DNA from: the human T2T-CHM13v2.0 reference genome, Homo sapiens | Strand: one strand, 5' to 3' | Length of the DNA: 64,000 bases | Assembly: GCF_009914755.1 (NCBI RefSeq) | Contig: NC_060948.1 | Part shown: positions 5,830 to 51,470 of the stretch, piece by piece | Layout: each line of letters starts with the position of its first letter | How positions within the stretch are numbered: the first letter of the stretch is position 1 | The notes under the pieces: generated by a model | Database searches by the model: none | What the model was told of the DNA's origin: nothing | The model's input: only the letters and a program-made list of their open reading frames with translations | Position numbers and translations under genes: made by a program

Positions 5830-6640
5830 TATTTTTTTTAATTTTTTTTTGTGGGGACATAGTAAGTGTGTATATTTATGGGGTACATGCGATGTTTTGA
5901 TGCAGGCATACAATCTGGAATAAGCCAATCATGAAGAATGGGGTATCCATTCCTTCAACACCCATCACTTGAACTACAAACAATACAATTACACTCTGTA
6001 ATTATTTTAAAATGTATAATTAAGTTATTATTGATTACAGTCATCTTGGTGTGCTATCAAATTGTAGGTCACAATCATTGTTTCTATGTTTTTTTAAAAC
6101 CATTAACTATCCCCATCTCCCTACCAGGCCCCCATTACCCTTCCCAGCTTCTGGTAACCATCCTTCTACTTTTTATGTCCATGAGTTCAATTATTTTTAT
6201 TTCTTGTCCCACAAATAAGTGAGAACGTGCAATGTTTGTCTTTCTGTGCCTGGCTTATTTCACTTAACATAATGATCTCCGTTCCACCATGCTGTTGGAA
6301 ATCACTGGATCTCATTCTTTTTGTACGGCTGAATAATACTCCATTGTGTATGTGTACCACATTTTCTTTTGTTTTTATTTTATTATACTTTAAGTTTTAG
6401 GGTACATGTGCACATTGTGCACATTAGTTACATATGTATACATGTGCCATGCTGGTGCGCTGCACCCACTAACTCGTCATCTAGCATTAGGTATATCTCC
6501 CAATGCTATCCCTCCCCCATTTTCTTTATCGCTTTATCTGCTGATGGACATTTAGGTTGCTTCCAAATCTTTTATTTTTTCCAAAAATCTGAAATTTGAG
6601 CTACCATATGATCCAGCAATCTCACTGCTGGCTATATACC
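5830..6640 (-). mobile_element. Old L1 3' fragment (L1M/L1PB-like), interrupted by a younger L1; a short + strand piece at ~6595-6640 suggests a 5' inversion
   Basis: Typical L1 3' motifs: tttgtctttctgtgcctggcttatttcacttaacataatg, gctgaataatactccattgtgtatgtgtaccacattttc, gatggacatttaggttgcttccaaatc; gagctaccatatgatccagcaatc in the opposite orientation. Confidence 0.75.
6370..6517 (-). mobile_element. Young 5'-truncated L1PA (L1PA2-like) 3' end nested in the older L1
   Basis: ttattatactttaagttttagggtacatgtgcac...ggtatatctcccaatgctatccctcccc; TSD cattttcttt at 6360-6369 and 6518-6527; GAG, not ACA, at the L1HS-Ta diagnostic site. Confidence 0.85.
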
Positions 6641-7055
6641 AATATCAGAGTAAGCCACAAAAGTCATGTCCTCTACATCATTAATATAATTTAGAGGTGG
6701 ACAATAAAAAAGAAAATTAATGGAGAAATAAAAGCAGAAATTTATAAAACATGTATAAACAAATGAGTCCATATTACTCAACTTTATATGGGTAAAAATG
6801 GAAGTAAAGTCACAATATCAGGCATTGAAATTATTCTGTATTCTGTTACTTGGTGTAAGGTGATTTGCCACAATCCAAGAGTCTATGAAGTAAGTTTGTA
6901 TGAGATAGGATGGAAGGAAAGGAGAATTTGAACTATCTCAGGGATATTTTTTAATGATTGAAAGCTATGCTATAAAATCTCTTAGGAAAAACATGCTATC
7001 AATTGCCTGATGGAGTAATGCATATCTCATATCCTTCTCATCTCTATTCCTTCAG

Positions 7056-7192
7056 ATCACAGTAGCTTTGGCAGCAATATCGAGATGTTGTCAGTTAAGC
7101 TTCTAGATCCCTCCATCTGCCACCATCAACATAGTCACATGACTAGAAATAATAATTTATGTATCTAGAATCAGCCACAAGTAGACTGCTGA
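7056..7192 (+). pseudogene. Candidate degenerate trypsin-like exon upstream of the giant repeat exon
   Basis: Acceptor ccttcag| and donor |gtactt; phase 1 to 0, 137 bp; translates DHSSFGSNIEMLSVKLLDPSICHHQHSHMTRNNNLCI*NQPQVDC*; size, phase and Cys pattern resemble the exon at 20178-20309, size and phase also 16173-16306. Confidence 0.55.
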
Positions 7193-7374
7193 GTACTTAC
7201 TACATAAAGGCAAAGCTAGCATTTTTGGGTTGGGGGGGCAGGTGTAGAAACACGTTAACAGTTCTGTAAATACACATAAAGATATGCATTTTCCTTAATC
7301 ACAAATAAATAAACCAGAAGAATTTTCAGTGATTTAAAAAAATTAAGAAATAGGGAACTTATTTAAAAAGCCTT

Positions 7375-7640
7375 TGAAGCCACAGTGGCTCTTGCCTGTT
7401 ATCTCAGTATTTTGGGAAACTGAGACAGGGCCTCACTTGAGGCCAGGAATTCCAGAGGAGGCTGGCAAATAGAGTGAGATGCTGTCTCTAGAAAAAATAA
7501 ATAAAATTTAAAAATTAGCTGCTTGTTTTGCAGTGTGCCTACAGCCCTAGCTACTTGGGAGGCTGAGGTGAAAGAATTGTTTGAACCAGGGAGTTTGATG
7601 TTGCTGTAACTTATGATCTTGTCACTTCACCCCAGCCTGT
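7375..7640 (+). mobile_element. Old Alu (AluJ-like) lacking its 3' end and A-tail
   Basis: Diverged dimeric Alu ending at ...ccccagcctg and running directly into repeat-exon sequence. Confidence 0.8.
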
Positions 7641-7644
7641 CCAG

Positions 7645-10600
7645 AGGATTATCTAATCATACTGTGGACTATTGCCAAATCTGCAGCAGTGAAACTCTGG
7701 ACACATTCTGTGTCTGGTAAAGTCACACTTTGGAACCAAGAAGAATTTCCAGCCTTACTTCCCTTGACAGAGCCTATCGCTAAGACAGTCACAACATAGA
7801 TCCAGGATAGAATTCCAACAATAAATCCCTGAGCAAAAACTATAGCTGAAACTGCCATACCATGGATCCTCGATGAAATGCCACCAACAAATCCCTGGAA
7901 AAAATACAGCCTGAATATTTAGCAGTAAATACCTGGCACTATCTGAATTTAACCCAGTCTCATTGTGGATCTTGGCTTATTTGTCAGTAGGAAACTACTC
8001 TACACAGTTCCATACTGAAACAATAACACTGTGAACCCACGTTGAGTCTCCAGCAATACTTTCCTGGAAACAGTTGGGAACTGATATAATCACATTAGGG
8101 ACCCATGCTGAATCACTAGTGATGAATTCATGGATATATTCTTCTATATGTGATACGGTCACAACACCTATCCAGGCTGAATCAGTTATTAAATCACTGG
8201 ACATACTCTGAAACTGATATACTCACAACATGGATTCTGGCTGAAACTCTAGGATTAAGTCCCTGGGCACGTGATATGTTCCTACCATGGACCCAGGCTG
8301 AAAGTCCAGCAGTATCTTGGATTCAACCATGGATTCTGGGTAGAATGCCAGCAATGAATCCCTGGAGAGAGGCTACAGCTGACATTGTCCTACCCTGGAA
8401 CCAGGCTGAATTTATGTAGAAGGAAATGCCTGGACACCGTCTGAAACTTATACAATCACAAAGAGGATCCTGAGTGATTCTCCAGCACTAAATTCATGGA
8501 CATGGGCAATAGCTGATGCAGACCAGCTGTGGACCAAACCTGAATTTCCAGCAGTAAATCCCTGGACAAAGTCTGTAGTTGATAGTACTATACCATGGAT
8601 ACAGGATGAGTCTCCAGCAATAAATCCATGGACACAGTACGTATCTTATATGATCAAACCATGAGCCCAAAATGACTCTTCAGCAGTAAATCTCTGTACA
8701 CTACCTGAATCTGATACCATTATCCTGTGGACACAAGCTGAGTCTCCAACAGTAAATCCGTTCACAGAGGCTGGAACTTCCACAGTCACACCATGGGCCC
8801 AGGCTGTATCTCCAGCAGTAATTCCACGGACACAGCCTATACTTTCCACAGTCGTACCTTGGACCCAGGTTGAATGTCCATCAGTAAATACCTGGAGAAC
8901 GTCCATAGCTGATGCCATCACACTGTGGATAGGGGCTGAATTAACCGCAGGATATCAATGGATACTGCCTTGGGCTGCTACTGTCACACTGTGGTCACAG
9001 TCTGAATCTCCAGCAGGAAATCTTTGGACACAGTCTGTGTATGACACAGACACACCATGGCCTCAGGCTGAATCTCCAGCAGTAGTTTGCTGGACAGAAC
9101 ATGTAGCTGATACACACCGTGGACTCAGTTTGAATTTTTAACAGTAAAGCCTTGGATCCAATCTGTATCTGATACGCTCATACCATGGACCCAGGCTGAG
9201 TCTTCAGCACTAAAGCATTTGACACAGGCAATAGCTTATACAATCAAGCTGTGGAACCAAGTCAAATCACCTGCCATAAATCTCTGGAAACAATATGAAA
9301 CGAATATGTTCACATGGTGTACTGAGGTTGAATCTCCAAAAGTAAAGGAGGGGACACATCCTATACCTGCTACAGTTATACCACTGAACCAAGCTGAATC
9401 TGTAGGAGTAAATCCCTCCACAAAGCTTGAAACAGAAATACTCATACTGTGGACCCAGGCTCATTCTAAAATCAACAATCTCTGTACATATACTCTACTT
9501 GATAGAGTGAAACCATTGGCTAAGGATGTTTGTGTAGCAGTAAACCCATGGAGACAGTCTAAAACTGAAATAGTCACATCATGGGCCCAGGATCTGTTGC
9601 CAGCAATAAATCCCTTAACAGTGGCTGTACCTGGTATAGTCACACTGCAGTACATGGCTGTATCTCTAGTAATAATTCCCAGGAGAGAGGCTCTAGCTGA
9701 TACAGTCATAATATGGACACAGACAAAATCACCAGCAATCAGTTTCTGGTTGTAACCTCTGCCTGGCACAGTCAAACTATGGACCCAAGCAAAATATACA
9801 CCCGTTATCACTTGGAACCAGGCTGAATTTCCAGCTAGAAATCCCATGATACAATCTTAGCCTCCAATTGTAAAGATCTGAACAGAGTCTGAATCTCTAG
9901 CCCCAAGTCCTCTGTTATAGGTGGAGACTGATACAGTCATACCATGGACCCAGACTGAATCTTTGGCAGTAAATCCCTGGACAAAGCCTGTTGCTGATAC
10001 ACTCACACTGTGTACACAGCCTGTAACTCCATCATTAATCGTTTTTTCACAAACTTTTCATGATACACTGAAAGCATGGGCTCAAACTGAATGCTTACCA
10101 GTAAATACCTGGACAGAGGCTGTAGCTTCCAAAATTATACCCTGGACCCAGGCTGAATTTCCAGCAGTAAATCCTTAGACAGAGCCTTTTGCTCATACGG
10201 TAACAATTTTGGCACAGGCTGTATCTTCAACAGTAAAGATCTGGCCACAGCCTTCATTTAATACAACCAACTTATGTATTTAATACAACCAATCTGAATC
10301 TGCAGCATTAATTACATGGATACAGCCTGCATCTGATACATACATAGGATTGATCCAATCTGAATCTTCACCAGTGAATTCCTGGAGACTGCCTATATCT
10401 AATATATTATCATTGTGGACCAAGCCTGTATCTCTAGCAGTCAATCTGTGAATAGAGGCAATAGCTTCCATAGTCATACCTTGGACCAAAGCTTTACTTT
10501 TAGAAACAAAACCCTGGACACATCCTGTATCTGATATACTTATGCTGTGGACCCAGGTTGAATCTTCTGCAGCGATTACCTCCACACAGGCAGTATCTGA

Positions 10601-10970
10601 CACAATTATACTGTGGCTGCATGCTGCAGGCCTCCAGTAGGAATTACCTGGATACAGACTGATCTGATCTTCTTATATCTTCTTATATCATGAAACAATG
10701 ATGAATCTCAACAGAAAATTCAGGGGCATGGGCTGTAGTTTCCACCGTGTTACCATGCAACCAGTTATCCCTTCAGCAGGAAAAACCTGGACATCTACCT
10801 GTGTCAGAATCAATCACCCCGCAGACCCAGTCTGAGTCTCCAGTAATGAACACATGGACAGAGGCTGCAGCTTCCACACTCTCAAAGTGGACTCATGATG
10901 ATTTTCCAGATGCAAATGCTTATACACAGAGCGAAATGGGCACATACTGGACAATGGGTAAAACTGAAGC
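7645..10970 (+). repeat. Degenerate 33-bp tandem array with 66-bp higher-order period (PWTQAESPAVN / PWTQPVADTVI)
   Basis: Recurrent ccatggacccaggctgaatctccagcagtaaat alternating with ccctggacacagcctgtagctgatacagtcata-like units, e.g. 8790-8895 and 9940-10010. Confidence 0.9.
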
Positions 10971-10975
10971 TAAGA

Positions 10976-13560
<2,585 letters not shown>

Positions 13561-14629
13561 ACCCAGAACCCTATAAAGCTGTTATAATTGATCATTTTCT
13601 CCTCCTGAAATTGAGCCGAACAGAGAAACACTATTAACGAGTCATTTTGGCTGCTTGTCCAAACGTGTACCCTTTTTGCCAGTAAAAACTGTTTATTCCC
13701 CAGATCGGTATTTTATAGCTTTGTCAACTGAGATAACTGCCACACAAAGCCAATATAAAATCAATTCTATCCAACCAAGCCAGTTTACAAGCATTTGGCT
13801 TCCTGGAAGAGTTGTTTACCAGCTCTATGGCAGGAAATTAAAAATTATCAAGACAAAAGAAAGCCCTCATGTCCCAAGTACCTCTCTTATCTCTCTTTAT
13901 GCTTTTTCTTTATTCATTCTTGTTCTCTTCCATCTGTATGTACACTGACCCCTTCTTGTTCAGTCTTTTCTTCTTGTACTTTCCTTTCATTCTGTATTTT
14001 CCCATCTTGCTCAGGTATTTCTCCTCTGGTCTCCTCTCCTATTCTGCTATCCATAGGCTCTTTTGCTAATCCTCCTCAGAATATATTTCCCTCAGCATTT
14101 ACTAAAGAGTCAATTCTTTCTCATTCTTTTTCATCCTTGCATACTGCTCCAGCCGCATTTTTAACAAAACAACCTCTCCTGATGCCTGGATCTCAGTCTG
14201 GACCCAAGCCTGAACAACAACCTCTTAGGTATTCAGAACTCAGTGTTTCCCTGGGTGAGTGTCAACTAGCTGTGATTTGGAAAGAAAGTTTCCAGGCTTT
14301 CTGGCTCTTCAGGACAGCTGTTATTTCCCATGAAACCACAGGCAGCTTTAGTCGAGTCAGATATTTGAGTTAATGTACTTGGTATGAAGACTCCTGTTGA
14401 ACCCTAAAACCAGAGTTTGTAGCAACAGAGGTTATGTTCTCAGACCGTTGCAAAACCAAAATTTAGGTTATTGTGTGAATCAGCAGAGATGTGTAAATAT
14501 TGAGAGAATATTTTTTTTTTTTTTTTGCCAAACAGGATGTTTGAGCTATGTGTTATGAACACAATTCTATTCAGACAGCAGTATTTTAAAGATAGCCTTA
14601 CTCCTTAGAAAGGTTTTATTATTTTCACT

Positions 14630-15021: not shown

Positions 15022-15190
15022 AGTGTGGATTATGCCCTGGCATTATCCCTGTCTGTCCCAACTGCTGGGAGGCAGAAATTGGTGAATTCTGTTGGGTGAT
15101 TTCTGCACAAATGTTTTTCTCCCATTTTTGTGCTGGCTCCATACTACATGAACAGTGGATCATTAGCACAGCTAGATGTGTCAATTTTAT
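15022..15190 (+). pseudogene. PRSSLY: PRSSLY-like protease domain A, exon 1 of 4
   Basis: ctgcag|...|gtaagt; ECGLCPG...EAEIGEFCWVISAQMFFSHFCAGSILHEQWIISTARCVNF matches the trypsin CG / FPW / CGGSI..WVLTAAHC pattern. Confidence 0.8.
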
Positions 15191-15299
15191 GTAAGTCTGA
15201 GCAATTCATTTCAAGATTATGATATCATTATAAAGCAAGTAAAACATTGAGACTGTTACTGAATATGTTTCTTTTCTATTTATTTATTTATTTTTGTTT

Positions 15300-15342
15300 G
15301 TGTGTGTGAGACAGAGATAGGGAAAGAGAGAGAGATAGAGAC

Positions 15343-15389
<47 letters not shown>

Positions 15390-15610
15390 GAGAGAGAGAG
15401 ACTCTCCCTCTATTGTCCAGGCTAAAATGCAGTGGTGTGACTCACATTAGCCTCAAACTCCCAATATTAAGGGATGCTCCCACCTCAGCCATCTGAGTAC
15501 CTGGGACCGCAGGCACACGCTACTGCATCTGGATAATTTTGTTGTTGTTGTTCTTGCTGTTGGTAAGGAAAAATTCTCATCATGTTGACCAATTGGTCTC
15601 AAATGATCCT
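15300..15610 (-). mobile_element. Old Alu with an adjacent (GA)n microsatellite (15300-15400)
   Basis: actctccctctattgtccaggctaaaatgcagtgg...cacctcagccatctgagtacctgggacc; (GA)n run. Confidence 0.75.
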
Positions 15611-15744
15611 TGAAAATAGTTTCTAAAGTACTATTTGCAACTGAGTGCTTACCTGGACTTCATGTGATTCACGTGAACTCCAGGGTTTTTTCACACTGAA
15701 ATGTGGAAATAATAAGATTTTTTCCTTGATTTTTTTTTCCCCCA

Positions 15745-16004
15745 AAAAAATGCAGAAGCCCTGGCTGTGGTCCGAGTGGGGCTTATTGACCTCCAGGATC
15801 CTGCCCAAGCTGAGATTGTAACCTTTGAGCATGCCATGCCCTATTTAGGTCCCAAGGGACCTCTAGGACCTGGGTTGATCTTCCTGAAGCAACCACTACA
15901 TTTTCAACCCAGGTTCCTTCCTATACGCCTGGAGCAATGTCTGGAACAAGAGAAAATATACAACTATATGACTGTTGGCTATGTAGTTGGTCCCTTATGA
16001 GGGG
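15745..16004 (+). pseudogene. PRSSLY: PRSSLY-like protease domain A, exon 2 of 4 (acceptor damaged, frameshifted)
   Basis: VRVGLIDL...GLIFLKQPLHFQPRFLPIRLEQ, then in a shifted frame QLYDCWLCSWSLMRG|gtgact; no in-frame AG after the pyrimidine tract. Confidence 0.7.
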
Positions 16005-16172
16005 GTGACTAAAGAAGAAGACACTGGAATGAAAGAGAAGCATGTTTAGGAAGAGAATAGTATCCTCTCATGAATAATAAAAGATTTGTCTTTCCCTTCA
16101 CCATACTTCTCCCTCTAATGTGGGCTAAAATTTGAAGACAAACACAAACACCTCTTCTCTGTTTTCTATCAG

Positions 16173-16306
16173 AAAGTCCTGGAATTGTGCAAAAACGGCA
16201 CCTGAGCATCCTACAAGTCAGCACTTGTGCCCAATTTTGGCTCAAGCTGAATGAACTCACTTTCTGGGTGGAGGCCAAGAAAGCCATGTGGATGGCTGAC
16301 TATCAG
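16173..16306 (+). pseudogene. PRSSLY: PRSSLY-like protease domain A, exon 3 of 4
   Basis: ttctatcag|...CAG|gtgaca; SPGIVQKRHLSILQVSTCAQFWLKLNELTFWVEAKKAMWMADYQ. Confidence 0.7.
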
Positions 16307-16423
16307 GTGACAAATTCATGGGGTATAAATATCAGGGAGAAAGAGGAATATCTTGAAAACCAAAAGTTACTTCTGGCCCTCCTTTAAAATATTGTTTGAT
16401 ATCTTGCCTCTTGTTTCTTGCAA

Positions 16424-16721
16424 GGTGACTTGGGAGCACCTTTCGTATGCCATCTACAGCAAGAGGACACTTGGGTGCAAGTGGGAATCTTGAGTCACTT
16501 TGAGGACCATTGCACAAAGCCCTAGGTCTTCAGCCAAGTGCACCCTTTCCTTTTCTGACTCCAGGGAGTGACACAGTCTAGCTATGCTCCCTGGTACAAG
16601 CAAGGGCCCATGACTACCTCTGCTTCTATGTCCCATTCAGTCTCTACCTCTACAAATGCTTCAGCTTTTACCTCCACCCCTGCTTCTCTTTGGCCACACT
16701 TCTCTCTGCCACAGCCTCAGA
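16424..16721 (+). pseudogene. PRSSLY: PRSSLY-like protease domain A, exon 4 of 4, plus S/T-rich linker
   Basis: GDLGAPFVCHLQQEDTWVQVGILSHFEDHCTKP*VFSQVHPFLF*LQGVT matches GDSGGPLVC..W.QVGI.S; stops at 16523 and 16556; acceptor reads AA; donor |gtaagg. Confidence 0.8.
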
Positions 16722-18165: not shown

Positions 18166-18301
18166 CTTTGGCAGATCAGATTTATCTGCGATATGCCATG
18201 CCTTGGAAGGCTGTCATCATCATCTGTGGGAGTCAGATCTGCAGTGGTTCCATAGTTGGCAGCTCTTGGATTCTCACAGCTGCCCACTGTGTCAGGAACA
18301 T
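18166..18301 (+). pseudogene. PRSSLY: PRSSLY-like protease domain B, exon 1 of 4
   Basis: YAMPWKAVIIICGSQICSGSIVGSSWILTAAHCVRN|gtaagt with an intact LTAAHC (His codon 18285-18287); the acceptor reads GG. Not shown in the supplied ORF track. Confidence 0.85.
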
Positions 18302-18665
18302 GTAAGTTTGTGCCTGCCTCTTCCCATGTCCTATAATTCATTATCCCATAATTACATTGCTGGAAGTTTATCTGTCCAAATTCACTTCTATAATGCATGA
18401 CCATCTCACTTATACAATAACTTTTTTGTTTTAGGCTAAAAAGAAATTGCCTCACTGTGTTTGGCTTATTAGTACCTCTGTTAGTTATCTCCTCTGCAAC
18501 CCCATTGTCTGTGGACTCTTTATTCATAGATTTCTGATTTCAATGAAGATGAGCTAGGAACCTTGTGTATCATGACAAAAGCGATATTCCGGAAAGCCTG
18601 ATGTAGGTTTAAGGTTCAGGTTTTCTAATGATTGTACTGTAATAAATCTTTGCCTATGCACTCAG

Positions 18666-18913
18666 GGATCCTGAAGACACTGCTGTGATACTGGGCCTGA
18701 GGCACCCTGAGGCACCACTGAGAGTTGTGAAGGTGTCTACCATTCTACTGCATGACAGATTCTGGTTGGTGACTGAGGCAGCAAGAAATATTCTGGAATT
18801 GCTACTCCTCCACGATGTCCAGACTCCCATTTGGCTCTTATCACTCTTGGGCTATCTGAGGAACCTGAATAGTTCAGAATGCTGGCTCTCTAGGCCACAT
18901 ATTGTTACACCAG
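18666..18913 (+). pseudogene. PRSSLY: PRSSLY-like protease domain B, exon 2 of 4
   Basis: ctcag|...G|gtcagt with compatible phases; DPEDTAVILGLRHPEAPLRVVKVSTILLHDRF...NSSECWLS. Confidence 0.8.
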
Positions 18914-19379
18914 GTCAGTGGTTATTTTTCTTATTAGCGTAGTTGTTCTAAAAAAATGAGGTTCATATTTTTAATATTATGATTCAAGGCATAAGTGTAA
19001 TCACATTTGTATACATTATTAATTATAAGATATTTAATCCACATCAGAGACCCACTAGGAGATTTGTTTTTGTTTTATAAGATGATGGTTCTGATGATGA
19101 CTTCACAGGATTTTAGATCTAACAAAAATTATATGAGGAACTTTCTCTGTACAGTCCAGATTTGTAAAGCAAGGTAGAGATGACTTCCTTCCCAACTCTT
19201 TTCTCACTTCGGTACAAAGGAAAAAGAAGGGTTTTGTATTGTTTTGTTTCATTTTTACTTCTTTATGAAAATGTAGCTTAACTTGACTTGGAATTTTGAA
19301 TTTCAAAGGTAAAAATTGACTTGTTAATTTTGCAGAGTAGAATTTAAAATGTTATTAAAAAGTGACAAGTCTGTCTTCA

Positions 19380-19672
19380 TTGACTCACCCCGGTAATTCC
19401 AGCAATGTGGGAGCTTAAACTAAGAGGACACTTTGAGTCCAGGAATTTGATACCAGCTTCAGCAATATAGCAGGACTTCATCACTAAACACGTAAACAAA
19501 AACAAAGCCTGGTTGATGTTGCACACAGGTAGTCCCAGCTATGTGGGAGGCTGAGGCAGGACGATGGCTTGAGCCCAGAGGTCGAGGCTGCAGTAAGTGA
19601 AGATTGTGCCAATGCACTCCAGCCTGGGTGACCAAAGAAGAACTTGTCTCAAACAAACAAACAAACAAAAAA
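19380..19672 (+). mobile_element. Old Alu (AluJ-like)
   Basis: Diverged Alu dimer with aaac tail. Confidence 0.75.
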
Positions 19673-19673
19673 A

Positions 19674-20067
<394 letters not shown>

Positions 20068-20177
20068 TTAAAGTAATGACGAGACAGAAGTGATGAGACA
20101 AATCGTAGTCTTATCTTAATACTTAGGGTTTAAATTTAACATATATTCTTAAGGATATAGTCCATTTGTCTTTCTAG

Positions 20178-20309
20178 GAGGGACCAATGACAATCCAGAA
20201 ATGTTAGGCACAAGTGATGAAAGCTTCCAGCTGTGCCCACCTGTACCCTGACATAGGCAGTTCCATTGTTTGCTTCATTACTCAGGACAAAAACTCTGAT
20301 GAAATTGTG
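20178..20309 (+). pseudogene. PRSSLY: PRSSLY-like protease domain B, exon 3 of 4 (one frameshift)
   Basis: tttctag|...GTG|gtacat; GTNDNPEMLG / QVMKASSCAHLYPDIGSSIVCFITQDKNSDEIV. Confidence 0.7.
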
Positions 20310-20848
20310 GTACATCATCAATTTTTTTCTTACTACATGATAGAAACTATAACTTTGTTCCTATACAAAGGGGTGTATACTGCATATGCCTAAATGATAA
20401 ATATAAGTGAATTATTGATCAGTAGGAAACCATTTTAAAATTCTTTAATTACAGAACAAAGTCTCTAAAAAAAATCTGTTTTTAATCTCTGAGTTTTCTT
20501 ACATACGATTTCAATCTCTAGCCATACTGTATAGCTATTATGCTGCTGTACACACAAATCAGACATTCTATATTATTCTCTTATTCTAATAATAGTATCT
20601 TTACACCTCAGAGTTTAAAACGAGTCTCACCTTTTTCTATTTCCCCAATTAAAATAACTTTTTAACATTTAATCTTCAGTGATTTTTTGTAGTAATATTT
20701 TTGAAGGTATTTCATCAGGATGATTTATTATGCACTTATCTGATGTCTCCTTTTCTTCTGAATACATGTTTTAATATCTACTTATTAAATCTATGATTAA
20801 TAATTTGGAATAGGGATTTAAATCCAAATTCTATGTTGGAATTTACAG

Positions 20849-21240
20849 GAGTCAGTGAGCCTACGAAAAGCATTTATGTGCAGACCAGTATCTGACAATG
20901 GCAGTTGGAGACAAATAGGCTTCACCAGTCTCAAAGCCCTAGCTACTACAGTGAGTCCACATTTGTCCTGGATATTATCTACTTCAGCAAAAGAAGGTCA
21001 CTCAATAAACCAGGCCCTTGTGCCTTGGGTAGAAACTCCGAACTCCTCTAGTCTCCTTAAACAACCAACCACACTGCCACTTTCCTCAATAATAATTACG
21101 GCAGCCCAGGGACTTTGGTAGCCTAGTGACTATAACTACTGATGCCACAGTCTGGTCACAGTATGATAAAACGCCAGAGCATCAACAAGGAAAATTTTGA
21201 CTTAGCCTTCCAAAATCTATCTAAATATACCTTCAATAAA
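20849..21240 (+). pseudogene. PRSSLY: PRSSLY-like terminal exon (stop 21119-21121, AATAAA 21235-21240)
   Basis: ttacag| in phase 0; ESVSLRKAFMCRPVSDNGSWRQIGFTS...VSPHLSWI matches the C-terminal trypsin C...W.Q.G..S...WI pattern. Confidence 0.75.
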
Positions 21241-21734
21241 TATGGCTTTTCTTCGTAATAACTGCTTTCTACTACTTCCTGAACTAATGCATGGCCTTGG
21301 ATTGTTTTCATTCTTGAAAATGATTCAAAAGTTCATATTTAACATGAACGTGAATGCAGGATTTTATTTATCAGCAAAAAAAATTTTCAAAATGATGCGA
21401 AATACAAATGTGGAATTGTATTTGTGAATATTAGTCTTTCAAATTATATTTTTATCCCAACTAACTCACACAATGTTTTGTAACTATCTGCATATTCTCC
21501 TCAGGTGGGGGAAAAACAGTATCAGAGTTCTTGAAGAATTTATGAAAAAGAAAATGACAATACTATACAAGGTTTAACCTATTCACAATACTGTATTTAG
21601 TGAATGAAAACATTACTTTTAAAATCCTACTTAAGTATTGAGTAAATAAATAAAGCATATTATTTCAATAACTCTAAAATACGTGTTCACGAAGACAATA
21701 CAACAAGGGTTAAAATACATAAACAAACAAATGA

Positions 21735-22050
21735 GGCCGGGCATCATGGCTTGCACCTGTAAGCCCAGCATTTTAAGAGGCCAAGGCGGGCAGATCACTT
21801 GAGGTCAGGAGTTTGAGACCAGCATGGCAAATATGGTGAAACCTCATGTCAACTAAAAATACAAAAATCAGCTGGACATGGTGGCATGCGCCTGTAATCA
21901 CACCTCCTTGGGAAGGCTGAGGCAGCGGAATCGCTTGAAGCTGGGAGACTAAAGTTGAGGTGAGCTGAGATCATGACACTTCCCTCCTGCCTGGGTTACA
22001 GAGCCAGACTCTGTCTCAACACACACACACACACATACACACACACACAA
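21735..22050 (+). mobile_element. AluS with (CA)n tail
   Basis: ggccgggcatcatggcttgcacctgtaagcccagc...gaggtcaggagtttgagaccagc; acacacac tail. Confidence 0.9.
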
Positions 22051-22599
22051 ATCTAAAAAAATGGAAAAAAAAATCTGTACTAGAAAAAGAGCTCACAGGC
22101 AAACTCACATATCTAACAGGAAAAAAATGTCCTTTAAACAAAGGTGGCACAAGAGGCAAATTTAAAAAAAACAAATGTATCAGCTTGCATATAAAGTACA
22201 AATAATATACTGAAGAGAACCACAAGGGGAAAAAAATCAAAATTTATAAGTATGTACTCTAAAAGAAGCTGAAAGTCACTTAAAAATTTTCTGGATTCTA
22301 TGTCTCTATATTGCAAAAATGATCATAAAATTTGCAGGAGCAGAACAATCAAAATCTATCTTAAAACTCAGTAAGCACTTCAAGTCTCACATAAGAATTG
22401 TAACAGAAAATGGATGTGTCTGCAGTATTTCCACACAAATCTGAACAAACACTATTTCTTCATACTCTTTGTTTCACTATTCTAAGAAAATAACCTCCAT
22501 ATTAATATTAGGTGATGCGACAAAGCAGGTCTTCATCATGATAAGCAACACTGGGTGTCCACACCAGTACCCAAGTGGGTCTTAATTCCCGGCCAGTTT

Positions 22600-24810
22600 C
22601 CCTCCCTGGGCACATACCAGAGGAGTCAGCCATTTTGCAGTCTCTTCACATTTCCTCCTCTGAGCCCAATGTGGTCCTCCAGATTCTCTGTGTAGTGGCC
22701 TCTTTTGTCTGGGTAGCAGGGAAGTGTGAGTGAAGACGGCAGAAAGGAGAAATCACGTCAGGGGAGCCTGGGTTCATCGTAACCGAAAATGATGGGCCTG
22801 GGAGAGCCATTCTGGGAGGACGCAGACCTAGACAGGCCTTGGGGGGACATCTGCATGGAGGGTGAGAGGGCCCTGGTTGAGCCCAAACTGAGCCCCAAGT
22901 GTTAGTCAGCCTCAGGGTGGGGAAGGGAGCCAACTAGAGATGTTGAGCAAGTTATCCCTTAAGACTTGCTTCTCACCCACTGACCTTAGACACTTATGCC
23001 TCTCAGGTGACTTAAGGTGCCCTAATCCTGAAATGTGAGTGTTACAGTTCCCTGAAGTCCGTTTCTCCTTCAGCCCATGGATGGCCTGGGATTGCTCACT
23101 GCAGTCTCTTCCCTGAAGCTTGGGTTCTCCTAACCTGACCTCCTCTCTGTTCCCTCTCTAATGGCCTCCCTCCCTCGGGAAGTACTGAAGGGGATTGAGC
23201 CACAGGCCCTGGCTGATGATCTGGGGGACTGAAGAAGGGGGTACAGGACAGGTCAGGTCATGGCTCAAAGCCAGTTCCCCAGAGGCCAAGGAATGACCAG
23301 CAAGGTTTTTCCCATGATGCCCCACCGTGGCACCCATCTCAGCAATCCTGCCGGGACCTGGGTAGCCAGGGGCAACCAACCAGCTGAAGAAGGTCAGATG
23401 TAGGTGTACTGCCTGCAGCTGGAGGCTTGACCTTCATGATCCCACAACCACTGGACTGCAGTGGAATGAGACACCCTGTTTCTTGGAGGGATAGGAATCA
23501 GGAAGGTTCATGCCAGACATACCCTCCCACACACAACCTCCCCTACCTTGCTGGGAGGCACTCCTTACCAAGGATGCCAACGCAGTACTCCTGAATGATC
23601 ACTTCATTGTGGAAGTAAAGGCTGTTACAAAAGGAAACCTTCATCCTGATGCCAGTACCTGGGGTGGCTGAGTTCCTCCATCTACCTGGTCAAGAAGGAG
23701 AAACAGGATGGACTCAAAGGACCATTTCATGTAGCTGGACTGAAGTGGCCTGCTAGCTGGAGTGAAGCATGTGTTTCCCCTTCTCAGCTGTCCTGCTTAG
23801 ACACCCCTGGGCCCCAGGGGGACCGCAACCTCACCCAGGCACTGGACCACTCCCACAGATTCAGGCTCAGCAGCCTAACCTGCAAATCCATCATGTAGCT
23901 CAGCAGGACTTCATCATTTGTGACCCTGGTCCATATCTGGGCCCAAGTCTTGAGCACCATGTGTTTCTGGGGTAAGCCTGCTGGACACAGGCACAGGGAA
24001 TAGGGGTAGTTCCATGGCTGGCATGGGCATAGAGACTCCCCTTCCTCCAGGGACTTTCCCAGGGAAATGTGCCCTTCGACTTTCTGCAGTGCATAAAGGG
24101 TCCTTTGCGCTCCTATTCTCTCTTGTGAGTGCTGTGCTTTGCTTCCTGTCCCTACTCTACGTGCTCTCAGGGCAACTGCAAGCAAGCTGCCCTCCTATCT
24201 GCAGAAGTCTGGCCTCTGCTCCCTTCATTGTTCCTCATCCCCTGACTCCTGGATGACCTCCAGTGCCTACCAGCTGGCTCCCCGCAACCCTGCTCCTGGG
24301 ACCTAGGCGCCCACCCCCTGCTGCCAGCCATCCCGAATTAGCAGCTGCGAAGACATGGCTCTGGCCCGGAAACCGGGGATGCCCTGTGGCTTGAGGCATT
24401 TACAAAGCCCAGCTGCAAATGATGGACCTCCAGCGAGTCCGTTGCGGGCCGGGGCATACTGGGGCCAGGGCCCGGCTCTGCCCAGTGGTCCTCCTGCTGC
24501 TGCTCCACGTCGGCCTCTTCCTTGGCCACCACTTCCACTTCTGTCGTGATGTCATTTACCAGGAGCACGCCTCTTCCCCCCAGGCCGCCCTCTCCCGCAG
24601 AGCCTCCAGACTTAACACGGTGCCCTCCTAGGGCTCCCACAGACCAAGGTCTGAGCCGCCCACCCCACGCCCCTGGCACCCCTAGACTCTGGGGGCCGCT
24701 CCTCGAGAGGCCCGGGGGCCTCGCCTAGCTGAGAATCACGGTCTCACACCTACGTGGACCCAGGATTCCTGGGGAGTCCCGCAGGGCCCACAGTCCGCCG
24801 CAGTCACCAT
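22600..24810 (-). pseudogene. TSPY: TSPY-like multi-exon pseudogene, copy 1 (possibly TSPY22P)
   Basis: Minus-strand exon peptides: EGTVLSLEAL, VLLVNDITTEVEVVAKEE, QGIPGFRARA, VTNDEVLLSYMMDLQ, FHNEVIIQEYCVGIL, LTFFSW...GPGRIAE, IISQGLWLNPLQYFPR. These are TSPY/NAP-SET motifs with frameshifts and deletions. Confidence 0.85.
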
Positions 24811-25439
24811 GAGGTCCAGATTCCCTGCATGGTTAGCTGCATACAGGAGCCATAGGCAGAGGCCCTGGACTTCCAGAGCCCCGCTAGCAGGCACCGCGGC
24901 CGGTGGGTGCTGCACTCACAGCAGCCTCTGCGCCACCAAGGCAGTGAACACAGGTCATTGGATGGGCGACCACGGCAGCTTGTCTCTGGTGTGCCCAGGG
25001 CATAGGACAAGAGATCCTTTGGAATACCCCTGGGAGTGCAACATCCTAGGGAGGATGCATGGAACTTGGAGTCTGTATTTCCCTAGATCTGAAAGAGTCC
25101 TTGCGGGGTTTTGAATTCCGGTGCTGACGAATTCCACCCCAGGAAGGTGCCAGATGACTTTCCTCCCAGATGCCCCCTCGGCCCCACTCCCCGAAAACCA
25201 CCGCCGCTGCCCTTGCCCCAGCAGGCAGGACTAGACCCTCTCTCTTGCCTCTGGATCTCCAATATTCAGTACCATCAGCCTAGCCTGCCTAATGAAGTGA
25301 GATGTTTCATGTGTTCCCTGTGAGTCAATGGCTTGCGGCACTCAGGATGCCAGTTAGGGTATAGGTCTTCCATGTCACAATTCCAAAGGGCTCACAGTCT
25401 GCGTGTGCCTGAACCCACCACCACCTTGCACAAGCATCT

Positions 25440-48469: not shown

Positions 48470-51235
48470 AATGTCTCAGGGGCCGGGGAAACATGAGTGA
48501 GGATGGCAGAGGGGAGAAAGCATGTCAGGGGAGACTGGGGTCATTGAACCAAAACATGACACGACTGGGATAGCCATTCTAGAAGGACACAGACCTAGAC
48601 ACGCCTCAAGTGCACCTCTCTGTGGCAGGTAAGAGGGCCCTAGTGGAGGCCAAACTGAGCCCCAGGTGGTAGCAGGCCTCAAGGCGTGGAAGGGAGCCAG
48701 AGAAGGATGATGCGGCAGCTATCCATTGAGATTGCTTCTCACCCATTGACCTTTGCCACTTCTGTGTCTTAGGTGACTTTGGGTGCCCCAGTTCTGAAAT
48801 ATGAGTGTTACAGTTCCCTGATGGGCTTTTCTCCCTCAGCCCAGGGATGGCCTGGGATTTCTCAGTGCAGGCTCCTCCCCGAGCCTTGAGTTCTCCATGT
48901 GTGTCCCAGCTCCAGGACCCACAGGCCTCTGAGCCCCCAGCCCTGGGTTGCTTACCTGGTTTCCTCTCTGTTTCCTCTCTGAGGGCCTAACTCCTTCCGG
49001 TAGTGCTGCAGGGGGATTGAGACAGAGGCCCTGAATGATGATCTGGGGGACTGAGAAAAGGGATCCGTGACTGGTCAGGTCATGGTTCAAAGCCAGTTCC
49101 CCAGATGCCAAGGAAAGACCAGCAAGGTCCTTTCCCATGACACCCCTCAGCGGTGCCCACCTCAGCAATCCTGGCTGACCTTTAGTGGTCACGGTCAGCC
49201 AACCAGCGGAAGAAGCTCAGTTAGGCTGTGTCCTGCCTGAAGCTGGGGTCTTCTGCTGCATGACTCTAGAAACACTGGACTACAGTAGAGACAGATGCCA
49301 TGTATCCTGGAGCAAGAAGATTTGGGTAGGCTCATGCCAGGCCTAGCCTCCCACACTCCACCCGCTCTATCATTCCGGGAGGCACTCCTTACCGAGGATG
49401 CCAACACGATATTCCTTAAAGATCACTTCATTGTGGAAATAAAGACTGTGACAAAAGGAACACTTCATCCTGCCACCAGTACCCTGGATGGCTGAGTTCC
49501 TCCACCTGCTACACCAAGAAGAAGAGGACAGACTCAAAGGATCCATTTCATCTAGTTGGGCTGAGGGCCTGCTGGCTAGGGTGAAGCATGCGTTTTCCCT
49601 TCCCAGCTCTCCCACTGAGACACCCCCAGACCCCAAGAGGACCTCAACCTGACCAGGACCCTCGATCCCTCCCCCAGACCCAGGCACCCTAGCCTGATTT
49701 GCAAATCCATCCTGTAGCTTACTTAGCAGGACTTCCTCATGGTTTCTGAAACCTGCCGACATCTGGGTGTGCGGCACAATCTGCCTCTGGTCAAGGAGCC
49801 TCCAGATGACTGGGTGGGTGTGCCAGGAAACACCCTGCAACTTTGCAAGAGCTGGGAGACTGTTGGGCAGGGCTATCCCCCAGACCTTTGGCCTGGCACT
49901 TTGCATTGGTGATCCTGTCTCTGTCCAGCATGAGGGGCACGGTAACGGATATGGTGGTCTTGTGGGCAAGTGGAGGGAGGCCCAGAAAGACTCTGCCAAC
50001 AAGGAGTGGGGAGCACAAGTTGGCAGGGTTTGGGTGTGGGGTGCTGTGGTGTGAGGCAGTTGTTTCCTCAGAGTTCCTGAGCTGCACATGGCCCTTGTGC
50101 ACTGGGTGCTAGATAGGCTCTGCTGAGGGTGTCAAGGTGTGTGGTACCCTCTTCTGTTCTCCCTGAGGGGTGGGTGTGTCCACTTGAGGGAACCGGTGTG
50201 GGTAGAAAGGACTGCAGGGCTGTACCTGGTGCTCCCCGTGGGGCTCATGTGTGTGCAACGGAGGCATGTGTGCAAAGGAGGATATATATGCTCAGGGCCC
50301 GCAGCTCTTTGGGTGCAACACAGGCAGAGGGAAGAAAGACTGTCTGGGTACCTGGTGCCTGCCTTGCAGAGGACAGCAGCCCCGTGCACCATGAACCCGA
50401 GTCTTGAGTACCTTGTGTTTCTGGTGTGAGGCCTCTGGACACACACACATGGGGAGTGGGTGTGGTTCGATGGCTGGTATGAGCATGCAGACTCCCTTTC
50501 CTCCAAGGACTTTCCCAGGGAAACGTGCCCTTCAACTTTCTGCTGTGAGTGAAGGGTCCTTGACACCCCTATTTTCTCTTGTGAGTGCTGAGCTTGGCTC
50601 CCAGTCCCTATCACATGCTCTCAGGTCACCCTCAAGCAAGCTGCCCTACTATCTGCAGTATCCTTGCCTCAGCTCCCCTCGCTGTCTCCCATCCCCTGCC
50701 TCCTGGCTGACCCTGTGTGCCCCTGGCCTGGCTCCGTTGCTCCCCGCCCCCGGAAGCCCGACTCCCACCTCCTGCTGCCAGTCATCCCGAATGGGCAGTT
50801 ACAAAGATATGGCTCTGGCCTAGAAGCCGGAGATGCCCTGGATGATGGCCCCTGTGCCCTCCAGGCCAGGCAGACACTTCTGACAAAGCTTCTGCCTCAG
50901 CCATGGGCAGGGCATGTGGCCTGGGGCATTCACGGAGCCCAGCTCCCTGTGAAGGACCTCCAGCGACTCTGTGGCCGGCTGGGGCATGCTGGGGCCAGGG
51001 CCAGGCTGTGTTCACTGGTCCTCCACCTGCCGCTCCATGTCGGCTTTCTCCTCAACCACCACCTAGACCACCGCCGTGACGTCGTCCACCACCAGCACCT
51101 TCTCCTCCTACAGGGGCACCTCCACACTCCGTGCCCTGGCTGCCCTCTCCTGCAGAGCCTCCAATTTCAACAGGGTGCCTCCTTTGGAGGTCCCATTGCC
51201 TACAGCCTGCACTGTCACCTTCACGTCTGGATAGG
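48470..51235 (-). pseudogene. TSPY: TSPY-like multi-exon pseudogene, copy 2 (possibly TSPY21P)
   Basis: Colinear homology with copy 1 in exons and introns; peptides KVLVVDDVTAVV, PGPGPSMPQPATESLEV, HTQMSAGFRNHEEVLLS, YFHNEVIFKEYRVGILG, IIIQGLCLNP; multiple stops. Confidence 0.85.
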
Positions 51236-51470
51236 TATATCCTTAAAATATACGTAAAGAAAAATAACTTAAAAGTGTTCCTGTTTCTCCACATCCTCTC
51301 CAACATCTGTTGTTTCCTGACTTTTTAATGGTCGCCATTCTAACTGGCATGAGATGGTATCTCATTGCGGTTGCAGGGCCATGGATGAAGCTGGAAACCA
51401 TCATACTAAGCAAACTATCACAAGGACAGAAAAACAAACACCACATCTTCTTACTCATAAGTGGGAGTTG
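50664..51470 (+). other. PRORY-like antisense ORF on TSPY-like exon 1, with a potential L1-derived terminal exon (51377-51470)
   Basis: 197-aa ORF containing KLLPQPWAGHVAWGIHG and HLLLLQGHLHTPCPGCPLLQSLQF; downstream ttgcag| then [17 protein letters not shown]...ISGS*. Similar but not identical to my recollection of PRORY. Confidence 0.45.

What the first reader, a model, noticed from the sequence alone, without database searches (positions are those of the whole stretch)
7056..7192. Extra trypsin-like exon upstream of the giant exon: a possible third, N-terminal protease-like domain
The exon has canonical AG/GT ends and phase 1 to 0. Its 137-bp length compares with 134 and 132 bp for the equivalent downstream exons. 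The peptide (LSVKLLDPSIC...MTRNNNLCI...DC) mirrors the trypsin LQxxxVxLxxxxxC...ITxNMLCA...DSC segment, and both stops are one base from TGG. If real, the giant exon is not the first exon and the protein was protease-repeat-protease-protease.
Basis: partly seen in the sequence, partly recalled or inferred. Interest (0 to 1): 0.7.

Follow-up and report, generated by a model that had tools for sequence, protein, structure and literature searches.

The report
Overlooked third protease-like domain of PRSSLY
This stretch of the human Y chromosome is a broken leftover exon of the dead sperm gene PRSSLY; it matches a third, front-end trypsin-like domain that intact animal versions of the gene still carry and that the main paper's text did not describe, and that domain is predicted to be enzymatically inactive.

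Summary
Confirmed. Window 7056-7192 is a 137-bp AG/GT, phase 1-to-0 exon. It matches residues 138-181 of woodrat PRSSLY (24/44 identical, 42 bits); both stops are Trp there. It is exon 4 of an N-terminal trypsin-like domain (D1). Pfam finds three trypsin stretches in 8 of 9 long orthologues, and woodrat D1 folds as a chymotrypsin-type domain. Ferret and sea-lion cDNA text shows the exon spliced between exon 3 and the giant exon (by eye). In this copy the exon is an orphan: exons 1-3 are gone bar ~27 bp, and a ~9.5-kb deletion removed the D1 C-terminus. A Yp copy keeps all five D1 exons. No D1 keeps His57 or Ser195 (0/15), nor does D2 (0/22); D3 lacks Ser195 in 20/22. Intact PRSSLY is therefore likely a secreted, tail-anchored triple pseudo-protease with a repeat spacer. 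The main paper names one domain and files D1 sequence under 'upstream ORF'. The human exon is a dead relic; the value is a corrected architecture of a known gene.

The parts
6602..6640 (+). Dispersed-repeat segment (L1-like, name recalled) abutting the exon-3 remnant; 6623-6640 matches both the repeat and exon 3, an 18-bp overlap at the left breakpoint
   Evidence: 79-82% matches in 8 fetched loci; homology to the Yp copy starts at 6623
6623..6649 (+). 3' end of D1 exon 3, with intact GT donor at 6650 (phase 1)
   Evidence: aligns to the end of the 284-bp exon 3 of the Yp copy
7056..7192 (+). D1 exon 4 (137 bp, phase 1 to 0). Keeps the three invariant Cys; two TGG codons became stops (7166-7168, 7190-7192)
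7639..7651 (+). Right breakpoint, inside an Alu-like element (name recalled): ~9.5 kb lost relative to the Yp copy, including the first ~2.5 kb of the giant exon with the D1 C-terminus
7651..14341 (+). Remainder of the giant exon (exon 5): Ser/Thr/Pro-rich repeats with Trp at 11-residue spacing in orthologues, many stops and insertions here; end approximate
   Evidence: end read from sequence
14153..14341 (+). Possible internal acceptor (AG at 14151-14152) where three database models join the signal-peptide exon, skipping D1 and the repeats
   Evidence: gene models only
15022..16721 (+). Domain 2 exons (15022-15190, 15756-16004, 16173-16306, 16425-16721), with frameshift and stops
18175..21115 (+). 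Domain 3 exons (~18175-18301, ~18667-18913, 20178-20309, 20849-~21115) and hydrophobic tail
   Evidence: the first two exon ends are approximate

Best explanation
The exon is the orphaned fourth exon of an N-terminal trypsin-like domain in a dead, amplified copy of PRSSLY, a gene whose intact form carries three trypsin-like domains that are predicted to be catalytically inactive and likely act as a tail-anchored binding or chaperone scaffold in spermatids. Shown: orthology of the exon; three Pfam trypsin stretches; five-exon D1 layout with phases 1,2,1,0 in the Yp copy; missing His57/Ser195; loss of exons 1-3 and 5 in this copy; two nonsense changes. Inferred: secretion (hydrophobic N-terminus) and membrane or GPI anchoring (hydrophobic C-terminus); the repeat region as an extended spacer holding D1 away from D2-D3; non-catalytic action like the inactive PRSS37 (about 60% for this mode of action); neutral decay of the human exon; left deletion by microhomology with a repeat and right deletion ending in an Alu.
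For: Exon = woodrat PRSSLY 138-181 at 42 bits; among 194 proteins the next three hits are also D1 (14-15 bits) and the best non-D1 hit is 9.6. Pfam Trypsin has 3 stretches in 8 of 9 long orthologues; the ninth starts inside the repeats. D1 forms its own clade (15 sequences, FastTree 0.954). Woodrat D1 is 35-41% identical to marsupial/monotreme D1, similar to D3 (39-45%) and below D2 (55-61%). AF2 model pTM 0.74, pLDDT 72; the listed Foldseek hits are chymotrypsin-type proteases, best E 2.7e-12, probability 1.0. Yp copy exons: 50 (frameshifted), 163, 284, 137 bp, then exon 5. Ferret and sea-lion cDNA text shows exon 3-4-5 splicing; mouse-lemur text shows exon 4-5 (by eye). Triad: D1 His57 0/15, Ser195 0/15, Asp102 13/15; D2 0/22 for all three; D3 His57 13/22, Ser195 2/22. 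Window versus Yp exon: 120/137 identical; 11 missense, 2 nonsense, 3 synonymous codons plus 1 change in the split codon; surrounding alignment 84%. Hydropathy peaks at both ends of most full-length orthologues.
Against: Only one eutherian D1 protein (a partial woodrat genomic prediction) was available to tools; other eutherian support is cDNA text read by eye and cut at ~400 nt. Triad columns were set from one control protease (P0176), plus plasma kallikrein for D2. One marsupial D3 (P0015) has His, Asp and Ser in the three columns, though not the GDSGG motif. Signal and anchor were judged by hydropathy only. The five AF2 models ranged from pLDDT 72 to 37. Many published cDNAs (mouse, bull, pig, dog, sheep, goat) begin inside the giant exon, so D1 may be lost or optional in some lineages. 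A coding-region deletion in mouse had no phenotype (PMC7617377, passages).
Confidence: 0.93

Rival explanations
1. Chance open frame between AG and GT that happens to look trypsin-like.
For: No Pfam hit for the exon alone; no hit in the word-based homologue search.
Against: 24/44 identity to woodrat PRSSLY at the collinear position; 59.7 bits versus at most 23.1 in controls; same exon with both Trp codons in the Yp copy.
Confidence: 0.005
2. A recent duplicate of the D2 or D3 fourth exon moved upstream in the human lineage.
For: Similar length and phase to 16173-16306 and 20178-20309.
Against: The D2 profile gives no hit and the D3 profile 1.5 bits, against 14.9 for D1. D1 is a separate clade across mammals and lizards, only 19-21% identical to D2/D3.
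Confidence: 0.01
3. D1 belongs to a separate upstream gene, or is optional, with the main product being a short signal-D2-D3 isoform made from an acceptor near the end of the giant exon.
For: Seal, dog and pocket-gopher models join the signal exon to the acceptor equivalent to window 14153. Many cDNAs lack D1.
Against: The D1 C-terminus is encoded by the 5' end of the giant exon itself. Single proteins hold all three domains in woodrat, marsupials, monotremes and lizards. So D1 is not a separate gene; a short isoform alongside the long one stays possible.
Confidence: 0.04
4. The human exon is still functional, for example in a read-through product or a lncRNA.
For: Both splice sites are intact; four copies are 100% identical over 451 bp; low-level transcription of human PRSSLY pseudogenes is reported (PMC9178871, main text).
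Against: Two stops; exons 1-3 and 5 are lost; substitutions against the Yp copy look neutral. The identity of the four copies is expected from recent segmental duplication (3.2 kb of flank is also 99.97-100% identical).
Confidence: 0.02

Closest known systems
PRSSLY (Hughes et al. 2022, PMC9178871)
   Same: Same gene: downstream exons are 72-78% identical to PRSSLY-like proteins over the full 64-aa query; giant repeat exon; human Y copies already called pseudogenes.
   Different: [quoted passage not shown] Supplement 5 lists D1-coding sequence of lemur, ferret, sea lion, fox, deer and wallaby under 'Upstream ORF'. The human model starts inside the giant exon and matches the Yp copy by eye. 'catalytic', 'triad', 'N-terminal' and 'signal peptide' occur 0 times in the main text. 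Figures were not visible, so Fig. 2 may shade D1.
S1A trypsin/kallikrein five-exon gene layout
   Same: His, Asp and Ser positions fall in coding exons 2, 3 and 5 (PMC3707919, passages). D1 has five exons with phases 1,2,1,0; that the canonical fourth exon is 137 bp is recalled.
   Different: His57 and Ser195 are replaced, and exon 5 runs on into several kb of repeats.
PRSS37 (inactive testis protease needed for ADAM3 processing; PMC10349139, passages) and PRSS55
   Same: Testis trypsin-fold proteins; PRSS37 works without catalysis. A PRSS37 cluster ranks third among Atlas look-alikes of platypus D1 (0.94; lead only).
   Different: Single-domain and essential for mouse fertility, whereas PRSSLY has three domains plus a spacer and mild or no knockout phenotype.
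Polyserases / ovochymases (multi-S1-domain proteins; recalled)
   Same: Several S1 domains in one chain.
   Different: They retain active domains and have no multi-kb Trp-periodic spacer (recalled, not tested).

Membership tests
PRSSLY | Best match and collinearity with PRSSLY orthologues | tested here: met
PRSSLY | Giant repeat exon upstream of conserved trypsin-like exons | tested here: met
PRSSLY | Intact reading frame (functional gene) | tested here: not met
   stops, frameshifts and deletions in this copy: pseudogene
Peptidase S1A / trypsin fold (D1) | PF00089 match of the domain | tested here: met
   third stretch in 8 of 9 orthologues; P0083 best stretch 39-236, protein score 83.5 bits; the exon alone has no hit
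Peptidase S1A / trypsin fold (D1) | Two-barrel chymotrypsin fold | tested here: met
   AF2 model and Foldseek, TM-score ~0.65, E 2.7e-12; predicted, not solved
Peptidase S1A / trypsin fold (D1) | Conserved cysteines | tested here: met
   8 invariant Cys in 16 aligned sequences, 3 of them in this exon; pairing inferred
Active serine protease | His57-Asp102-Ser195 triad | tested here: not met
   D1 His57 0/15, Ser195 0/15; D2 0/22; D3 complete in at most 1/22
Active serine protease | Measured proteolytic activity | not testable with these tools
   needs an assay
Membrane/GPI-anchored testis PRSS proteins | Signal peptide and C-terminal hydrophobic anchor | tested here: inconclusive
   hydropathy peaks only; no predictor run

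The most novel reading that the evidence does not exclude
PRSSLY is an ancient triple pseudo-protease (signal, dead D1, Trp-periodic spacer, dead D2, dead D3, anchor) whose N-terminal domain and lack of catalysis have not been described in print. Annotated mouse, bull and pig models are 5'-truncated, so published mouse alleles left D1 untouched and the gene's real phenotype is untested.
Probability: 0.35. Interest if true: 0.6.

Novelty: new member of a known kind. Interest (0 to 1): 0.38.

Why it matters
It corrects the architecture of the one ancestral gene reported as kept on the eutherian Y and lost from the X: three trypsin-like domains, not one, and probably none active, so the search should be for binding partners, not substrates. 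The 'upstream ORF' reported as nearly neutral includes, in several species, a domain conserved about as well as D3. Gene models that start inside the giant exon lack a signal peptide and are likely incomplete, which bears on how mouse alleles are read. For humans the exon itself is a dead relic.

Tried and rejected
Pfam on the exon alone: no hit, and no hit for the true equivalent exon or the Yp exons 2 and 4. Word-based homologue search with the exon: nothing. Search for D1 exons 1-3 and 5 in the window and 20 kb upstream: only the 27-bp exon-3 end. Six other Y copies were fetched: five have exon 5 but no exons 1-4 in the upstream stretch, one (7.35 Mb) showed no D1 exon. Rows P0002_D1 and P0007_D1 are mislabelled D2 hits and were dropped before the D1 counts (17 rows to 15). 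PDB sequence search at E 1e-20 matched only D2. Pfam on the TSPY-like exon gave no hit, so the TSPY name is recalled. A look-alike in another frame of the exon-2 cDNA text was judged coincidence once the true orthologue was found. Holmlund 2022 (PMC9476217) could not be read and earlier scan notes were not available, so prior mention there is open.

Full report
Observation. Window 7056-7192 is flanked by a pyrimidine tract plus AG and by GT, is 137 bp long and has phase 1 to 0. The equivalent downstream exons measure 134 and 132 bp. The downstream gene is a PRSSLY pseudogene: 8 of 11 hits cover a 64-aa piece of domain 2 fully at 72-78% identity, and follow-up hits are named PRSSLY.

Orthology. 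The exon alone has no Pfam hit, nor has the true equivalent exon of domain 2, and a word-based search found nothing. Fetching orthologues through the C-terminal domains settled it. The exon matches residues 138-181 of woodrat PRSSLY (P0014) at 24/44 identity and 42 bits, with Trp opposite the internal stop and Trp as the next residue after the last Cys. Among 194 proteins held, the next three hits are the same segment in two marsupials and platypus; the best other hit is 9.6 bits. Controls on reversed and unrelated window sequence reach at most 23.1 bits against 59.7. A profile of 14 D1 sequences (5 marsupial, 2 monotreme, 2 lizard, 5 unnamed) ranks this exon first in the window, narrowly ahead of a paralogous D2 exon; D2 and D3 profiles give none and 1.5 bits.

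The domain. Pfam Trypsin has three stretches in 8 of 9 long orthologues; the ninth begins inside the repeats. D1 forms its own clade (support 0.954) and is 19-21% identical to D2 and D3. Woodrat D1 is 35-41% identical to marsupial and monotreme D1, against 55-61% for D2 and 39-45% for D3. Woodrat D1 folded on 16 sequences gives pTM 0.74 and mean pLDDT 72 (other models down to 37); its listed Foldseek hits are chymotrypsin-type proteases such as factor XI, plasma kallikrein and prostasin. Three of the eight invariant cysteines lie in this exon and survive in the human copy.

Catalysis. With columns set by one intact control protease: D1 has His57 in 0 of 15, Asp102 in 13 of 15, Ser195 in 0 of 15. 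D2 has none of the three in 22 of 22. D3 has His57 in 13 of 22 and Ser195 in 2 of 22; only P0015 has all three, without the GDSGG motif (D2 cross-checked on plasma kallikrein). Two mislabelled rows were dropped before the D1 count. Hydrophobic peaks lie at both ends of most full-length orthologues. I infer a secreted, tail-anchored triple pseudo-protease whose Ser/Thr/Pro-rich spacer (Trp spacing mostly 11 or multiples) separates D1 from D2-D3, and which acts by binding, as the inactive PRSS37 does for ADAM3 (PMC10349139, passages). That step is inference.

History of this copy. The exon occurs five times in the genome, all on this contig: four copies identical over 451 bp at 22.79 (-), 23.46, 25.30 and 26.91 Mb, and an 84% copy at 10.25 Mb. 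Spacing and orientation fit the AZFc b1-b4 amplicons (recalled). The 10.25-Mb copy keeps exon 1 (frameshifted), exon 2 (163 bp), exon 3 (284 bp, stop, donor lost), exon 4 (137 bp, open, TGG at both positions, donor lost) and exon 5, the start of the giant exon, with phases 1,2,1,0. The window copy aligns to it only over 6623-7639. On the left a dispersed repeat overlaps the exon-3 end by 18 bp; on the right about 9.5 kb are missing, including about 2.5 kb of the giant exon with the D1 C-terminus. The 17 differences between the two exon copies (11 missense, 2 nonsense, 3 synonymous, 1 in the split codon) look neutral.

What is in print. PMC9178871: I read main-text parts 1-4 of 5, supplement 1 part 1 of 2, supplement 2 (legends), supplement 5 parts 1-2 of 3 and supplement 9 (each sequence cut at about 400 nt); no figures. 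It knows the human loci as pseudogenes and says PRSSLY has 'only one identifiable domain'; its domain set is D2-sized (about 648 nt). D1-coding sequence of lemur, ferret, sea lion, fox, deer and wallaby is filed under 'Upstream ORF'. Read by eye, ferret and sea-lion cDNAs contain this exon between exons 3 and 5 (ferret: 137 nt, about 29 of 45 residues shared), and the lemur sequence has it joined to exon 5. The human model begins inside the giant exon. So the sequence is deposited, and Pfam detects the domain, but I found no description in print: searches PRSSLY (23 papers, 20 listed), DYNG+protease (3), PRSSLY+trypsin (5, 4 listed), PRSSLY+pseudogene (5, 4 listed); word counts; passages of PMC12940834 and PMC13184221. 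Holmlund 2022 was not held, and Fig. 2 may shade these exons. The mouse cDNA starts in the repeats; if its exon 1 is the giant exon, targeted exons 6 and 8 are D3 (inferred). A deletion of the 'entire coding region' gave no phenotype, including sex ratio (PMC7617377, passages), which counts against a large role unless D1 exons were spared.

Verdict. The observation and interpretation hold. This is a relic exon of a known pseudogene that exposes a real but under-described third domain; interest is moderate.

Noticed in passing
G000:C24:8958687-9851464; L023-L024; window 19870-25409: The last PRSSLY exon matches 45 places at ~20.3-kb spacing, with no stop inside the match. The one unit examined holds the last two PRSSLY exons, an inverted TSPY-like remnant and a TSPY-like exon 1 (names recalled), and is 70-83% identical to window 19870-25409. 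So each unit of the TSPY array appears to carry the 3' end of PRSSLY; overlap with FAM197Y was not tested, and one search was seen as a listing only.
   Followed up: partly
G000:C24, 5.9-26.9 Mb: At least 16 further loci (this one included) hold PRSSLY pieces, all on this contig. The gene is heavily amplified as pseudogenes on the human Y, next to TSPY-like and RBMY sequence.
   Followed up: partly
window 14151-14153: Strong internal acceptor near the end of the giant exon, used in seal, dog and pocket-gopher models to give a short signal-D2-D3 protein.
   Followed up: partly
L006:8020-8124: The Yp copy has an inverted partial duplicate of D1 exon 2 between exons 2 and 3, and a further exon-2 start fragment near L006:7329.
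   Followed up: no
window ~24338-24728 (-) and ~50592-51257: Two TSPY-like remnants (name recalled) flank the RBMY2DP region; neither PRSSLY nor these remnants has a row in the supplied annotation.
   Followed up: no
window ~12655-13118 and ~10970-11299: An LTR-like and an Alu-like insertion (names recalled) interrupt the giant exon; the first is absent from the Yp copy, whose alignment resumes in register.
   Followed up: no
window 14342-14343: The giant exon appears to end at a GC rather than GT donor (read).
   Followed up: no
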